Made by a program: the position numbers and the translations under genes. From contig CAVSHR010000002.1 of assembly GCA_963727625.1 (NCBI GenBank), positions 128,001 to 192,000 on the forward strand: 64,000 nt of DNA. The letters run 5' to 3'. The DNA is from an uncultured delta proteobacterium. GTDB lineage: Bacteria > Desulfobacterota > Binatia > UBA9968. The notes under the pieces are model-generated. The model made no database searches and had not been told where the DNA came from. It saw only the letters and a program-made list of their open reading frames with translations. The stretch's first letter is position 1, and every line of letters begins with the position of its first letter. Of the stretch, positions 14,656 to 19,112 are shown one piece after another.

Positions 14656-15168
14656 CTATTTCGGCACCGGGACGACCGTGCCGCATTTCTTGCAGGTGCG
14701 CAGTTTTTCGTCGCTGGAAAATTTCGCGTAAACCTGCCCCACCGGGTCGGCGCGATAATCGCCGACCTCGGCGGAGGTCTCGTAGACTTTCTCGCCGCAT
14801 TGATTGCAAAACCACTTGAAGTAATCGATCTCGCCCGCGCGGCGCTTGCGCTCGAAGACGATGAACCAGGAGTTTTCTTCGAGCCGCGGCGAATGCGGCA
14901 CGCCGGCGGGGCAGAGCAGAGTTTGGCCGGCTTTGATGTCGGCGGTATGTTCCTTGCCGGCTTCATCGCGGTAGACCAGATGCTGCACGCCGGTGAGTTG
15001 CAACGTCACTTCATCCGCCGGATCGACGTGAAAGTCCCAGCGCTCTTTGCGCCCGCTGCTCAAGAACGCGATGGACTCGGAGTCCTGCCAGAGCACCCGG
15101 CGGGTTTTGCCTTCGGCTTTAACTTCCTCGATCACGCCGGTGACATCGATGGGGACGAGCTCTTTCAT
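14656..15168 (-). CDS. nbaC: 3-hydroxyanthranilate 3,4-dioxygenase-like cupin
   Basis: RWDFHVDP..E, PAGVPHSP, ERKR, rubredoxin-like CNQC and CKKC. Confidence 0.75.
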   Translation of the reverse strand: MKELVPIDVTGVIEEVKAEGKTRRVLWQDSESIAFLSSGRKERWDFHVDPADEVTLQLTGVQHLVYRDEAGKEHTADIKAGQTLLCPAGVPHSPRLEENSWFIVFERKRRAGEIDYFKWFCNQCGEKVYETSAEVGDYRADPVGQVYAKFSSDEKLRTCKKCGTVVPVPK

Positions 15169-15204
15169 GCAAGAACTATAGCGCTTTCAAAAGTGAAGGA
15201 GCAA
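14998..15204. repeat. Direct repeat copy 1 (5' part of nbaC plus upstream)
   Basis: Aligns by eye with 15911-16117 at offset 913. Confidence 0.95.
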
Positions 15205-15285
15205 GCATTGGATGCAACCGCAAGATGGTTTGGGCGATCTGTATTATTTTGTTGCTTTTTCTAAATGGCTCTATAGAACTCCTTC

Positions 15286-15585
15286 ATGGCGAATTATCGC
15301 ATCGATGTGACCGACGAGGCAAAGTCGGATCTCACTCACTATACCGCGTTTGAGCGGAAACTTGTCGTGTCGCAGATTCGCGAGCAGCTTACGCATGAGC
15401 CATCGGTCGAAACCAGAAACCGGAAATCACTACGGGACAATCCTATCTCGACTTGGGAACTCCGGATTGGCAAATATCGGGTCTTCTATGAGGTTGATGA
15501 GGCGCCTCCTTCAGTTCGTGTTGTGTCTGTCGGTCATAAAGAGCACAATATGCTATTGATACGGGGCAAAGAGGTTCGGATATGA
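15286..15585 (+). CDS. Type II TA toxin, RelE/ParE family
   Basis: WELRIGKYRVFYEV; 99 aa; overlaps antitoxin (ATGA). Confidence 0.85.
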   Translation: MANYRIDVTDEAKSDLTHYTAFERKLVVSQIREQLTHEPSVETRNRKSLRDNPISTWELRIGKYRVFYEVDEAPPSVRVVSVGHKEHNMLLIRGKEVRI

Positions 15586-15854
15586 AAACGATCGATATGG
15601 GGAAAGAGAAGTTTGACTTGACCGACGTCATTAAAATCGCGCGCCAAGAACCGGTGTTAATTGTCGCGCCGGATGGTAGCGAGTTTTGTTTGGCTGAAGC
15701 CGATGACTTCGAAAAGGAAATAGCCGCCTTGCGCGGTAGTCAGGCTTTTCAGAAATTCCTCGACCAGCGCTCTGCGAGCGCGAAAACCTATGCCCTCGAC
15801 GATATTGAAGCAGAGATTGACAGAGAACTTTCAATTCAGCGCAAAGACTCCTAG
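15582..15854 (+). CDS. Putative antitoxin (Phd-like N-terminus)
   Basis: Small acidic protein translationally coupled to the toxin. Confidence 0.7.
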   Translation: MKTIDMGKEKFDLTDVIKIARQEPVLIVAPDGSEFCLAEADDFEKEIAALRGSQAFQKFLDQRSASAKTYALDDIEAEIDRELSIQRKDS

Positions 15855-15910
15855 CAAAATCTCCGCTCCCTCTCGCCCTGCTCGATAGTCGTGTTCACAG
15901 AGCCGTTTGT

Positions 15911-16117
15911 TTGCAACGTTCCTTCATCCGCCGGATCGACGTGAAAATCCCACCGTTCTTTGCGCCCGCTGCTCAAGAACGCGATCGATTCGGAGTCCTG
16001 CCAGAGCACTCGGCGGGTTTTGCCCTCGGCTTTAACTTCCTCGATCACGCCGGTGACATCGATGGGGACGAGCTCTTTTATGCAAGAACTATCGCGCTTT
16101 CGAAAGCGGTGGAGCAA
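15911..16117 (-). pseudogene. Truncated duplicate of nbaC 5' end (direct repeat copy 2)
   Basis: Encodes KELVPID...FHVDPADE identical to NbaC; start ATG is ATA; mostly synonymous differences. Confidence 0.9.
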
Positions 16118-16267
16118 TAGAGTCTTGATGTCAATCTAGTTGCTTTTTTCACATGGTAACAGCTTAAAACTTCGCCTTCGTAAATTCTTTCTATAGTTGC
16201 CTTTTCGACCAGATCTAAGTATGCGATAAGGGATTTTCCGGAGCCTAGTATTGTTCGTATTGCGACT

Positions 16268-17685
16268 ATGGCCGATCATGTTTTTATTTGTTACGCGCGT
16301 GAGGATGCGGATTTTGTACTCCCCCTTGCGAGAGCTTTGAAGGAACGTAAGATCTCGGTTTGGTTGGACCAATGGGATATACCTCCGGGTTCGGACTGGG
16401 ATCGGTCCATCGAAATGCGATTTACGACTGTGCCAAGTTCATCATTGTCCTATCCAATCTTGCCGTGGATTCGTCCGAGGTCCGCGGTGAGTTACGCACC
16501 GCTATCGACGAAAAAAAGCCGGTCATACCGGTAATTCGCGCGCCATGCCGAGTTCCGCGCCAACTCCGAACTATTCAGCACGCAGATTTTTCTTCAAAGA
16601 AGCCGGACGACGAAGCCGCTTTAAGACAATTGTTACGCACGCTGGAAGTCACCACAGCTTTGACGGCCGAGCAAGCCGAGAAAATTGGCACTGAGCGAGG
16701 CTCCGGAGGCTCAGAGCCAAATAAACCGGAGGCCACCTGGTCCCGGAAAGGAGATCCATCGGCGCTCAGTGGCTATCTTCGCGCGATTTCTTCCGGTCAC
16801 AATTTACACATGGCTTTTGCCGGGGGTATAGTTGCGGTTGTAGTGATCTGGTGGTTCTGGCCACCCGCGCAACACCCGCACCTCCCGCCAGCCCCGGCGG
16901 TGCCGGCAGAATCAGTTAAATCTCCTTCCACGGTCACAGGATCTAAGGAACCGAGCGCCGTGGTTGAGAAGCCGATTGCCGGTCCGGAAATGGTTGTCAT
17001 CCCCGCCGGCACGTTTCAGATAGGCGATCAGCAGGGGAAAGGCGCCAAGGACGAAGTGCCGGTCCATTCCGTGCAATTCAGCAAGCCATTTGCTGTGAGC
17101 CGCTTCGAAGTGACCTTCGATGACTACGACGTATTCGCTAAGGCGACAAAGCGAAGATTCCCAAGCGATCAAGGTTGGGGACGCGGTCGGAGGCCTGTGA
17201 TCAATGTGTCGTGGGAAGATGCCCAAGCGTACGCAAAATGGTTGTCAGAGCAAGCAGGTAAGCGATATCGTTTGCCGACGGAGGCCGAGTGGGAGTATGC
17301 GGGGCGAGCCGGGAGCAAGACGGAATACTGGTGGGGCGATACTATTGGCCGAGGGCAGGCGAACTGCGACGGTTGCGGCAGTCAGTGGGATAACAAACAG
17401 AGCGGCCCCGTTGGATCGTTTAAGGCAAATTGTTTTGGGCTGTTCGACACCGCGGGTAACGTATGGGAATGGGTCGAGGATTGCTGGCATGACAACTACA
17501 ACGGCGCACCGATTGATGGCCGAGCGTGGAAAGCTGAGAACGGCGGGAGGTGCGGCCGTCGTGTGATCCGCGGCGGCTCCTGGGACAACGATCCGGTGTC
17601 CCTGCGATCATCGTTCCGCGGCAGGGACCTCGCCGACTTCCGGTTCAACTTCATCGGTTTCCGTCGCGCCCAGGACTTAAATTGA
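16268..17685 (+). CDS. TIR - TM - FGE-sulfatase (CLec fold) protein, one frameshift near 16413
   Basis: VFICYARED...VWLDQWDIPPG.DW joins NAIYDCAKFIIVLS...SEVRGEL if one A is added to GAAAT; TM segment; EVTFDDY, PVINVSWEDA, RLPTEAEWEYA, GNVWEW, RGGSW, GFR. Confidence 0.85.
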
Positions 17686-17921
17686 TCTTTGTTCTTTGCC
17701 CTTTTACCCTTTGGGTTTTTGGGTGCCAGTCGTTCCAATCGTTCAAGCCGTTCAAAACGTTCGGCACTCGTGATGCGGGTTGCGAATACCCCGTTACCAG
17801 TCTTCGAATCTGATACCGTACGGCTCGCTCGGAGGTGGTTCGTTGACAACAGAGCACCAGGGGAGCAGGATTTATGCATCGGATGATCGGGTTCGACGCG
17901 AGCTAAACGTGAGGGGAATCG

Positions 17922-18428
17922 ATGGGTAAGTCAAAAAGCGTATTTGTATCTTTTTCCCGTCGCGATGAAGCCGCGGCTCGGAGCCTTATCGATGAATTGC
18001 GCCGCCATGAATTTTCCGTGTCGGACGGAGTGGGGGATTTCAAGGCAGATGCGGAATGGCAGCAGGCAGTGGAGAAGGCCATCCGGTCCGCCGATGCCGT
18101 GATTGTGATTCTCGGAGGCAAAGCAGAGCCGACCAAGTATCAGGAACTTGAATGGAGCGTGATCCTGGAATCGCATTGGGCCGATTCCAAAAAGTTGTTG
18201 ATCCCAGTGTTGCTCGGTGACGCCGACCTTCCAAGTTTCTTGGCAAGTTTTCAACCGCTGCACCTGCCTGATGCAACTGGCGGTTGGACCCCTGTAATAC
18301 AAGCTCTGCAAGGCCAAGTTGTGAAGCCAGAGCCAATTTTCGTCAAAGATACCGCGAAACTTAGGGAGCGTTTAAAGATCGTCGAGGAATTCGCCCAGCG
18401 CATCAAAAAAGATGACAACGTCTGGTAA
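17922..18428 (+). CDS. Stand-alone TIR (TIR_2) domain protein
   Basis: VFVSFSRRD, AIRSADAVIVIL, putative catalytic Glu in YQELEW, LIPVLL; RBS GAGGGG. Confidence 0.85.
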   Translation: MGKSKSVFVSFSRRDEAAARSLIDELRRHEFSVSDGVGDFKADAEWQQAVEKAIRSADAVIVILGGKAEPTKYQELEWSVILESHWADSKKLLIPVLLGDADLPSFLASFQPLHLPDATGGWTPVIQALQGQVVKPEPIFVKDTAKLRERLKIVEEFAQRIKKDDNVW

Positions 18429-18434
18429 CGAAAC

Positions 18435-19055
18435 GTGGCGCAGAGTAATCTCCCGGTCGATCCCAATCAATCGGTTTTCATAAATTGTCCATACGACGCT
18501 GAGTTCGCTCCCCTTTTCGATGCCATAGTGTTCGCTACGGTGTGCTGCGGCTTTGTGCCAAGAAGTGCGCTTGAATCGGGCAGCGTTGCAGAACCTCGCA
18601 TGGAGCGGATCACGAGGACGATTTTCTCGTCCAAGTATTCCATCCATGATCTATCCCGCTGCAAGGGTGAGGGCAGCGAACAGTTGGCGCGGTTTAACAT
18701 GCCGCTTGAACTCGGCATCGCCATTGCCCGGCGCTATACTCAAACCGATGAAGCGCACAAGCATGACTGGTTGCTATTAGTTCCGCAGGGACATCAATAC
18801 GGCCGGTTTGTTTCCGACCTCGCGGGCTTTGATCCAAAACCGCATGACGGAACTGTGAAGTCTATCGTTCCAAAAGTCATGTCCTGGCTGAAAACTCGGC
18901 CTGATGCGGTGCAAACGCCGGAACCGCCGGAGGTATTGGACGCGCTGCCGAACTTCGTTCGAGCAAAATCGGCCCTGGAGCAGGCGTGGAACAACGACAT
19001 CCCGTGGGGCGACATCTTATTAGCTGCGAAAGGACATGTGCCTGAAGCGAGTTGA
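18435..19055 (+). CDS. Hypothetical protein, nucleoside 2-deoxyribosyltransferase/TIR-like Rossmannoid fold
   Basis: SVFINCPYD, SIHDLSR, RFNMPLELGIA, SDLAGFD; 6 bp after TIR gene, GTG start. Confidence 0.65.
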   Translation: MAQSNLPVDPNQSVFINCPYDAEFAPLFDAIVFATVCCGFVPRSALESGSVAEPRMERITRTIFSSKYSIHDLSRCKGEGSEQLARFNMPLELGIAIARRYTQTDEAHKHDWLLLVPQGHQYGRFVSDLAGFDPKPHDGTVKSIVPKVMSWLKTRPDAVQTPEPPEVLDALPNFVRAKSALEQAWNNDIPWGDILLAAKGHVPEAS

Positions 19056-19112
19056 CTTGATTCCCCAACCGCGAGGATGATAAGTCTCGGGTAATTCAAA
19101 TCGGAGGTACGT

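What the first reader, a model, noticed from the sequence alone, without database searches (positions are those of the whole stretch)
16268..17685. TIR-TM-CLec receptor whose 3' end looks like a DGR variable repeat (remote target)
Seen: after RGGSW the codons run GAC AAC GAT CCG GTG TCC CTG CGA TCA TCG TTC CGC GGC AGG GAC CTC GCC GAC TTC CGG TTC AAC TTC ATC GGT TTC CGT. The slots that are usually variable are all NNC/NNT, as expected from adenine mutagenesis of AAC/AAT codons. Known: FGE-sulfatase CLec domains are classic DGR targets, and targets can be remote from the RT. Inference: a hypervariable extracytoplasmic ligand-binding domain wired through a TM helix to a cytoplasmic TIR, i.e. a diversifiable TLR-like receptor. 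Caveats: GC3 bias also favours NNC, and no RT or template repeat is in this window.
Basis: partly seen in the sequence, partly recalled or inferred. Interest (0 to 1): 0.72.

Follow-up and report, generated by a model that had tools for sequence, protein, structure and literature searches.

The report
Orphaned DGR target: frameshifted TIR–lectin receptor gene
This membrane receptor-like gene carries at its tail the unmistakable scar of a retroelement that once rewrote it at random, but the retroelement is gone from this genome and the gene itself is broken, so it is a frozen relic, not a live diversifying receptor.

Summary
The codon run is exactly as described, and it is not a GC3 artefact. 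At the 10 codon slots that are AAC/AAT in 12 template repeats (TRs) of related loci, this gene has NNC in 10 of 10. Its upstream codons have NNC at 0.31 (P about 8e-6).

The homologous 3' end is a proven DGR variable repeat (VR) in 12 of 79 related genome loci, with the RT and TR beside it. Some of those targets also carry TIR domains.

- **No cognate TR here:** the 6.6-Mb assembly holds none.
- **The one DGR is unrelated:** the single DGR, on contig C12, has an unrelated TR with one VR of its own.
- **The gene is split:** one base is missing at 16414, inside the TIR domain.

The gene lies in a 3.9-kb strain-specific island. At the matching spot, one genus relative keeps only a TR remnant and has no RT. 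Another keeps only a VR remnant.

Best reading: an orphaned VR from a decayed DGR locus. TIR plus FGE-sulfatase DGR targets are already in print, so this is a new, degenerate member of a known kind.

The parts
16268..16414 (+). N-terminal 49 codons of the TIR domain, read from the ATG at 16268. In this frame the ORF runs on to a stop at 16534.
   Evidence: Pfam TIR_2 positions 1-44, E 2.6e-15. Homologs' residues 1-49 align here at 67-75% identity.
16412..16416 (+). Frameshift site. One base is missing relative to homologs, in the run g-a-a-a-t. The two homolog alignments share base 16414.
   Evidence: tblastn of P0010, P0008, P0020 and P0006; ORF list. A 151-nt unitig of run X3 spans 16346-16496 with 0 differences.
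16414..16635 (+). Rest of the TIR domain, in the frame of the 441-codon ORF 16360-17685.
   Evidence: Pfam TIR_2 positions 46-122, E 1.4e-10.
16804..16860 (+). Single hydrophobic segment, the predicted membrane helix, followed by a proline-rich linker.
   Evidence: Best 19-residue Kyte-Doolittle window, mean 1.88. Homologs P0005, P0010, P0045 and P0059 have one at the same place. L025/P0020, P0024 and the L053 target have none.
16984..17670 (+). FGE-sulfatase (C-type-lectin-fold) domain, predicted to lie outside the cytoplasm.
   Evidence: Pfam PF03781, E 1.7e-59. PDB hits: PvdO 5hha at 1.3e-48, FGEs at about 1e-23, TvpA 2y3c at 9.7e-12.
17555..17673 (+). Orphan variable repeat (VR). The core GGSW..GFR is 17572-17664. 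The stretch 17575-17673 aligns to the TR remnant of relative G021.
   Evidence: 10 of 10 NNC at TR-defined slots. The homologous stretch is a TR-paired VR in 12 of 79 loci. Against the G021 TR: 18 of 28 template adenines differ and 12 of 71 other positions differ.
17686..17716 (+). T-rich element just after the stop codon, of the kind found after true VRs. An exact CTTTTACCCTTT lies at 17701-17712.
   Evidence: The motif (up to 2 substitutions) is present after 5 of 9 paired VRs, 0 of 12 TRs and 6 of 70 unpaired ends. No strong GC hairpin follows it here.
17922..18428 (+). Neighbouring 168-aa TIR_2 protein.
   Evidence: Pfam E 2.1e-17. Conserved with the next gene in relative G021 at 57% aa identity.
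18435..19055 (+). 206-aa protein of no Pfam, NCBIfam or PADLOC family, paired with the TIR gene.
   Evidence: 85% aa identity in G021. The Atlas gives clusters of hypothetical proteins at 0.97 and only a weak lead (0.85) to a TIR-like family.
15205..19112 (.). Strain-specific island between the 3-hydroxyanthranilate dioxygenase gene and an isochorismatase-family gene.
   Evidence: In 13 genus genomes the two flanking genes lie 55-379 nt apart. Six others have different inserts of 1.2-5.1 kb.
15286..15854 (+). RelE/ParE toxin (15286-15585) and a small partner gene (15582-15854) at the left end of the island.
   Evidence: Pfam ParE_toxin 8.6e-08. NCBIfam RelE_StbE 6.7e-07.

Best explanation
The gene encodes a single-pass membrane protein. 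It has a cytoplasmic N-terminal TIR domain and an extracytoplasmic FGE-sulfatase-type C-type-lectin (CLec) domain.

Its last ~100 nt are a variable repeat that a diversity-generating retroelement (DGR) wrote. In a DGR, cDNA copied from a template repeat, with its adenines randomised, replaces this stretch, leaving NNC codons wherever the template had AAC. Inferred function in the intact family: the variable CLec face binds a ligand outside the cell, and the TIR domain inside acts as the effector, probably by consuming NAD+.

In this genome the writer is gone. There is no cognate TR, and the only DGR has an unrelated TR, so the VR is frozen. A one-base deletion also splits the TIR domain, so the gene is most likely a recent pseudogene.

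The gene sits in a small island at a variable hotspot. Relatives of the same genus keep complementary wreckage at the matching spot, upstream of the same isochorismatase-family gene: a TR remnant without an RT in one, and a 3' VR remnant in another. This points to a DGR cassette that once stood here and decayed.

Shown: domains, frameshift, imprint, homology to true VRs, absence of a TR, island, relics in relatives. Inferred: topology, TIR activity, order of decay.
For: 1. Imprint. NNC in 10 of 10 TR-defined slots, against 0.31 background. Nine TR-paired VRs average 9.56 of 10. An own-genome paralog scores 4 of 10.

2. Homology to real VRs. In 12 of 79 genome loci of relatives, the same 3' ~120 nt pairs with a TR beside a DGR-type RT. 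Between 87 and 100% of the mismatches fall at TR adenines. Five more TR-like elements and 7 paired VRs occur in 79 metagenome loci.

3. The VR-specific T-rich 3' flank is present.

4. No cognate TR in the genome, none in 185 related loci totalling 1.87 Mb (best hit 20 non-A mismatches in 126 nt), and no remnant of an RT or avd in the window.

5. Of 8 RVT_1 hits, only C12:643802-645322 looks DGR-type.
- It carries IGNLNSQ, which fits the [LIV]GxxxSQ motif quoted in PMC3575424.
- It has a bAvd neighbour.
- Its 127-nt TR and VR differ at 21 positions, 18 of them at TR adenines.
- Its TR finds only that one VR in the genome.

6. Frameshift, also seen in a 151-nt unitig of a public run.

7. Island.

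8. G021, same genus, 95% complete, 0 RVT_1 hits.
- It has a TR remnant about 270 nt upstream of its copy of the TIR + 206-aa pair.
- The remnant has a TR-type flank: a 23-mer shared with the TR flanks of L080 and L081, found in 8 related loci and nowhere in this genome.
- Its only matches in 31 genus genomes are itself and this VR.
- Against this VR, 18 of 28 template adenines differ but only 12 of 71 other positions do. With the roles reversed the counts are 3 of 13 and 27 of 86. Neighbouring genes are 73-84% identical in DNA.

9. G019 keeps only the last 67 codons of a homolog at the matching spot beside its isochorismatase gene. Against the G021 TR, 15 of 24 adenines and 8 of 57 other positions differ.
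Against: - The assembly is 98.45% complete, in 15 contigs, with 6.3% contamination. A TR on an unassembled piece or on a mobile element cannot be excluded.
- A perfect 10 of 10 imprint is what a live target would also show. Five of 9 paired VRs have 10 of 10, but so do 14 of 69 unpaired ends.
- The G021 TR is not closer to this VR than TRs from unrelated taxa. Non-A identity is 0.83-0.84, against 0.89 for L077, and TRs are 0.71-0.97 identical to one another. The link therefore rests on position, not on sequence alone.
- In G021 the left flank of the hotspot is on another contig, and the first three slots of its TR are not AAC, so that remnant is itself decayed or chimeric.
- The frameshift could be an assembly error. 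The supporting unitig has depth 2 and may come from the source sample.
- TIR activity and membrane topology were not tested.
Confidence: 0.75

Rival explanations
1. It is a live remote DGR target. A cognate TR and RT exist in the organism but are missing from the assembly (an unassembled stretch, plasmid or prophage), and they still rewrite this VR in trans.
For: - The imprint is perfect and the VR-type flank is intact.
- The genome is incomplete.
- Remote targets more than 100 kb from the RT are documented (PMC5758913, passages). Trans activity at incomplete loci is reported in Thiohalocapsa (PMC10907252, passages).
- In one of 5 control genomes, an unpaired end (L052) has a plausible TR 3.3 Mb away, with 17 A-site and 6 non-A mismatches in 125 nt.
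Against: - No TR and no second DGR-type RT in 6.62 Mb.
- No TR-flank 23-mer in the genome.
- The gene is frameshifted.
- Two genus relatives show the same locus in decay.
- In the control genomes, 4 of 5 unpaired ends had no cognate TR either.
Confidence: 0.08
2. The VR was written in another lineage. The gene, or the whole island, then arrived by horizontal transfer without its RT and TR, so no DGR cassette ever stood at this locus in this genome.
For: - The island is absent from 13 genus genomes and the hotspot carries different cargo in six others.
- No relative among 40 searched has an ortholog; the best DNA identity is 68% over part of the gene.
- The closest protein homologs (53-75% identity) come from diverse phyla.
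- TRs of this family are so conserved across taxa that the G021 TR is not specifically the closest.
Against: A TR remnant (G021) and a VR remnant (G019) lie in the matching position, upstream of the same isochorismatase gene. In G021 the remnant also sits beside the same TIR + 206-aa pair. That is simpler to explain by one cassette decaying in place.
Confidence: 0.14
3. There is no DGR history. The NNC codons reflect GC3 bias and a preference of these loops for Asp, Asn and Phe.
For: - Ten of the 16 variable residues that I counted by eye in the quoted run are D, N or F. Those amino acids can only be encoded by NNY codons, so part of the codon signal is amino-acid composition.
- Among the six degenerate residues, only 4 of 6 are NNC.
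Against: - The slots were defined from TRs elsewhere and are 10 of 10 NNC here, against 0.31 upstream.
- The genome's own non-VR-type paralog scores 4 of 10 and has Lys in these loops.
- The same nucleotides are TR-paired VRs in 12 loci.
- Mismatches against TRs are concentrated at template adenines: 18-23 of 27-32 adenines, against 7-16 of 61-66 other positions.
- The VR-type flank is conserved.
Confidence: 0.02

Closest known systems
DGR target proteins with an FGE-sulfatase/CLec1 VR plus Toll-like-receptor (TIR) and NTPase domains (Wu et al. 2018, categories b7-b11, PMC5758913), and TIR-bearing 'antigen sensor' targets (Dore et al. 2024, PMC10907252). Passages read.
   Same: A C-terminal FGE-type CLec domain whose last ~120 nt is the VR, with an N-terminal TIR effector. 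Related loci found here show the same: the L080 target is TIR_2-nSTAND1-FGE with bAvd, RT and TR downstream, and the L053 target is TIR_2-FGE.
   Different: There is no STAND NTPase here. A membrane helix lies between TIR and CLec. There is no cognate TR, avd or RT in the genome, and the TIR domain is frameshifted.
TvpA of Treponema denticola (PDB 2y3c), the model FGE-type DGR variable protein, with several remote targets.
   Same: [quoted passage not shown] By the paper's account it has no formylglycine-generating activity (PMC5758913, passage).
   Different: Only distant in sequence (E 9.7e-12). TvpA is a lipoprotein without TIR (recalled, not from a call) and has a live TR.
PvdO (PDB 5hha) and true formylglycine-generating enzymes (6muj, 2q17, 1y1e).
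   Same: Best solved relatives by sequence: PvdO at E 1.3e-48 and FGEs at about 1e-23.
   Different: The NCBIfam PvdO score is 193.9, against a cut-off of 500. The two cysteines in the FGE stretch 'lCh..syC' align to a gap and to a proline here. That these are the catalytic pair is recalled, not from a call. Those proteins are enzymes, not DGR targets.
CLec paralogs and remote variable proteins of cyanobacterial DGRs (Vallota-Eastman et al. 2020, PMC7517822, passages).
   Same: Many CLec-bearing multidomain signalling proteins per genome, only some of which match a TR (121 of 219 in that study).
   Different: That study did not, in the passages I read, treat TR-less paralogs as fossils of past mutagenesis. 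Here the codon imprint and the relics in relatives argue for that.

Membership tests
DGR variable repeat / target gene | The VR lies at the 3' end of a CLec (FGE-sulfatase) domain gene and is homologous to known VRs. | tested here: met
   Pfam E 1.7e-59. The same 31-codon GGSW..GFR segment is a TR-paired VR in 12 of 79 loci.
DGR variable repeat / target gene | A cognate template repeat in the same genome that differs from the VR essentially only at TR adenines. | tested here: not met
   BLASTN finds self only. The adenine-tolerant scan of 6.62 Mb gives a best non-self hit of 31 non-A mismatches in 126 nt, equal to the control. No TR-like peptide. No TR-flank 23-mer.
DGR variable repeat / target gene | A DGR reverse transcriptase (with avd) serving that TR. 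| tested here: not met
   One DGR-type RT exists (C12, with bAvd), but its TR is unrelated and matches only its own VR. No RT or avd remnant in the window.
DGR variable repeat / target gene | An adenine-specific substitution pattern relative to a template. | tested here: inconclusive
   This could only be tested against TRs of other genomes. Against the G021 TR, 18 of 28 adenines and 12 of 71 other positions differ. Against 12 TRs, 18-23 of 27-32 adenines and 7-16 of 61-66 other positions differ. The asymmetry is strong, but these are not same-genome pairs.
DGR variable repeat / target gene | Cis elements for homing at the VR 3' end (IMH, downstream hairpin or cruciform). | tested here: inconclusive
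   The T-rich flank shared with true VRs is present. Many family members have a GC-rich perfect hairpin after it, which is not present here; the best local DNA fold is -6.1 kcal/mol.
DGR variable repeat / target gene | Population-level variation confined to VR slots. | not testable with these tools
   No run holds more than 0.17 of the sampled words, all runs are kept as contigs, and none covers 17604-17685. No ortholog above 70% identity in metagenome contigs.
TIR-domain effector proteins | A complete TIR fold in one reading frame. | tested here: not met
   TIR_2 positions 1-44 and 46-122 lie in two frames, split at 16414.
TIR-domain effector proteins | The catalytic glutamate of NAD+-cleaving TIR domains. 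| not tested
   A Glu in the stretch VRGEL is kept in homologs P0020 and P0024 (output). That it is the catalytic residue is my recollection. No solved TIR matched at E up to 0.1.
Formylglycine-generating enzyme / PvdO | The active-site cysteine pair (FGE), or an equivalog-level score (PvdO). | tested here: not met
   The cysteines of 6muj align to a gap and to a proline. PvdO scores 193.9 bits, against a cut-off of 500.

The most novel reading that the evidence does not exclude
DGRs of this receptor family may act 'hit and run': a cassette diversifies a TIR/STAND-linked CLec sensor, is then lost, and leaves a frozen receptor.

On this reading, most family members in genomes are fossils. Their age could be read from the decay of the NNC imprint. 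They may also keep a usable homing site that an incoming compatible cassette could re-awaken.

What supports it:
- 70 ends without a TR within 10 kb average 8.04 of 10 NNC, against about 3 expected. The 62 non-TR ends in metagenome loci, 7 of them TR-paired, average 8.39.
- In 5 chromosome-scale or near-complete genomes, only 1 of 5 such ends had a plausible distant TR.
- Within one genus, the same locus keeps the VR in one genome, the TR in another and a stub in a third.
Probability: 0.35. Interest if true: 0.6.

Novelty: new member of a known kind. Interest (0 to 1): 0.4.

Why it matters
For this locus, the finding corrects an attractive reading. The gene is not a working hypervariable receptor.

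More generally, the slot-specific NNC imprint works as a template-free detector of past DGR activity. Standard DGR finders need a TR-VR pair and cannot see such genes. In this family the TR-less ends outnumber the paired ones about 8 to 1 in the loci sampled (70 against 9).

If that holds more widely, the reach of DGRs in shaping TIR/STAND-linked sensor repertoires is underestimated. DGR loss after diversification would then be a common step in the life of these putative immune receptors.

Tried and rejected
- **Read-level variation.** The best public run holds 0.17 of the sampled words. The four runs I laid are contigs, mostly other organisms' conserved FGE segments at 17240-17343. There is no cover of 17604-17685, so they say nothing about VR heterogeneity.
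- **Orthologs for a VR comparison.** None in 40 relatives (best 68% DNA identity over part of the gene). None in metagenome contigs (best 70% aa in the FGE domain).
- **Short VR-only hits in relatives.** L110 and L111 turned out to be other VR-like ends, not TRs.
- **A-rich stretch at C14:70441-70790.** It scored best in the adenine-tolerant scan but is a Gln/Lys-rich coding repeat, not a TR.
- **L103 repeat.** It is an inverted 75-nt pair without adenine bias and was not counted as a DGR.
- **Solved TIR relatives.** No hit for the C-terminal TIR piece at E up to 0.1.
- **PADLOC.** Only generic TIR hits, no named defence system.
- **Earlier notes of this scan.** Only a group II intron note for this genome.
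- **Degenerate TR pattern.** I did not scan public collections with a degenerate IUPAC pattern derived from the VR, so a TR in viral contigs was not looked for directly.
- **Structure and complex prediction.** Not run. The fold was already assigned by sequence.
- **Unpublished genome G005.** It appears in the table. No claim or count here rests on it.

Full report
**What is there.**
The span 16268-17685 holds TIR_2, one hydrophobic helix and an FGE-sulfatase domain, in that order. It is not one ORF.
- The ATG frame from 16268 stops at 16534. The rest of the protein is in the frame of ORF 16360-17685.
- Four full-length homologs align with residues 1-49 on 16268-16414, and with residue 50 onward from 16414 in the other frame. 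So exactly one base is missing and no residue is lost.
- A 151-nt unitig of public run X3 covers 16346-16496 without a difference. It has depth 2 and may be from the source sample.

**Is the codon pattern more than chance?**
I fetched 79 loci of relatives from genome contigs. In 12 of them, the 3' ~120 nt of the FGE homolog pairs with a second copy 1.2-3.8 kb away, beside a DGR-type RT. Between 87 and 100% of the mismatches fall at adenines of that copy. These are true TR-VR pairs, and four TRs serve two VRs.

The TRs translate roughly to GGSWNN(N/K)P.NLRS.NRNRN..DNRNNN.GFR. That defines ten slots that are AAC/AAT in the templates. NNC counts at those slots:

| Set | n | NNC out of 10 |
|---|---|---|
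| TR-paired VRs | 9 | mean 9.56 |
| Homolog ends with no paired TR within 10 kb | 70 | mean 8.04 |
| Non-TR ends in metagenome loci (7 of them TR-paired) | 62 | mean 8.39 |
| The finding | 1 | 10 |
| Only other 31-codon GGSW..GFR end in this genome (FGE paralog) | 1 | 4 |

- The finding's own upstream 200 codons have NNC at 0.31, which gives P of about 8e-6.
- Against the 12 TRs, the finding differs at 18-23 of 27-32 template adenines, but at only 7-16 of 61-66 other positions.
- Just after the stop codon it has the T-rich element found after 5 of 9 paired VRs, 0 of 12 TRs and 6 of 70 unpaired ends.
- Many family members have a GC hairpin next. It is not evident here.

**Is it a live target here?**
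No evidence supports that.
- BLASTN of 17500-17690 against the 15 contigs finds only itself.
- An ungapped scan that forgives every template adenine finds nothing above the background given by a control segment.
- No N-rich TR-like peptide exists in six frames.
- No 23-mer of the TR-type flank is present.
- Of the 8 RVT_1 hits, by my reading of the sequences, two full copies, a partial copy of the same gene, a C5 gene and two C9 fragments look like group II intron RTs, and one looks Abi-like.
- One RT, at C12:643802-645322, is DGR-type. It carries IGNLNSQ, has a bAvd neighbour, and has a 127-nt TR and VR differing at 21 positions, 18 at template adenines. That TR finds only its own VR in the genome and does not align to the finding.
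- None of 185 related loci (1.87 Mb) holds a cognate TR. The best has 20 non-A mismatches in 126 nt.

**How common are such orphans?**
I took five other genomes whose 10-of-10 ends lacked a TR within 10 kb.
- TR-like elements exist in three of the five genomes.
- Only one end (L052) pairs plausibly, with 6 non-A mismatches in 125 nt, 3.3 Mb away.
- Two genomes have no TR-like element at all.

**Context.**
- The stretch 15205-19112 is an island. In 13 genus genomes the 3-hydroxyanthranilate dioxygenase and isochorismatase-family genes lie 55-379 nt apart. Six others carry different inserts of 1.2-5.1 kb. The unpublished genome G005 was left out.
- The island holds a RelE/ParE pair, a 216-nt duplicate of the dioxygenase 5' end, the finding, a 168-aa TIR protein and a 206-aa protein of no known family.

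**Relics in relatives.**

G021 (same genus, 95% complete, no RVT_1 hit):
- It has a TR remnant about 270 nt upstream of its copies of the TIR and 206-aa genes (57% and 85% aa identity). Those copies again sit upstream of the isochorismatase gene.
- The remnant has the TR-type flank and hairpin.
- It has no VR in its own genome.
- In 31 genus genomes, its only other match is the finding's VR.
- The two differ at 18 of 28 template adenines and 12 of 71 other positions. With the roles reversed the counts are 3 of 13 and 27 of 86. Neighbouring genes are 73-84% identical in DNA.
- Caveats: the remnant's first three slots are not AAC, the left flank of the hotspot is on another G021 contig, and the L077 TR from another taxon is at least as similar at non-A positions.

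G019:
- It keeps only the last 67 codons of a homolog beside its isochorismatase gene.
- Against the G021 TR, this stub differs at 15 of 24 adenines and 8 of 57 other positions.

**What is known.**
- FGE-sulfatase CLec1 targets are the largest DGR target class. Nine DGRs with Toll-like-receptor and NTPase domains are listed by Wu et al. 2018 (PMC5758913, passages).
- Dore et al. 2024 describe TIR-bearing CLec 'antigen sensors', incomplete loci and trans activity (PMC10907252, passages).
- Vallota-Eastman et al. 2020 count 121 of 219 CLec orthologs as TR-matched (PMC7517822, passages).
- Loss of DGRs is raised as a possibility by Schillinger and Zingler 2012 (PMC3575424, passages).
- My searches for 'orphan' together with DGR terms found no paper that treats TR-less VRs as fossils. 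Supplements were not read.

**Verdict.**
The DGR origin of the 3' end is well supported. The 'live remote target' reading is not supported. The gene is an orphaned, frameshifted member of a published family.

Noticed in passing
own genome, contig C12:643802-646482 (outside the window; locus L012): A complete DGR on the minus strand. Order: a small target with a PEP-CTERM tail and a weak Lcl_C match, then bAvd, then a 127-nt TR, then the RT. The RT carries a C-terminal MutS domain I-like extension (Pfam MutS_I 7.2e-05). TR and VR differ at 21 positions, 18 at template adenines.
   Followed up: partly
window 14989-15204 and 15902-16117: A 216-nt direct repeat (91% identity) of the 5' end of the 3-hydroxyanthranilate dioxygenase gene brackets the RelE/ParE toxin-antitoxin pair, as if the pair had been inserted with a duplication.
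   Followed up: partly
window 17732-17767, also 2076, 14612, 29957, 30027, 33030, 57945: Arrays of three or more 9-nt units beginning GTTC (GTTCN5) occur 113 times in the genome, against about 0.8 expected naively, and 7 times in the window. They lie mostly between genes. A similar array follows the closest homolog in L025, and one appears to follow the stub in G019.
   Followed up: partly
window 17922-19055; G021:C52 (L218:1805-2932): The 168-aa TIR protein and the 206-aa protein of no family are kept as a pair in relative G021 (57% and 85% aa identity), without the TIR-CLec gene. They may be a two-gene unit of their own.
   Followed up: partly
G021:C52:13433-13544 (L218:1434-1545): An orphan template repeat with its TR-type flank and hairpin, but no RT detected in that genome and no VR matching it there.
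   Followed up: yes
related loci L025-L103 and L132-L210: Downstream of VR-type ends there is a conserved layout: stop codon, tandem T-rich words (two variants, CTTTACCTC-like and CTTTTACCCTTT-like), then usually a perfect GC-rich hairpin. It is absent after TRs. Many ends with no TR within 10 kb keep it.
   Followed up: partly
L053:11530-11647: The VR of a TIR_2-FGE target lying directly after RT and TR has a 4-nt gap relative to its TR. This shifts the frame at the end of the gene. It is either another decaying target or a MAG error.
   Followed up: no
window 15205-19112 and the same site in G004, G008, G014, G019, G023, G049: The gap between the dioxygenase and isochorismatase genes is an insertion hotspot with different cargo in different genus members. 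In G019 the cargo includes an O-methyltransferase and an ODP-family lactamase-like gene.
   Followed up: partly
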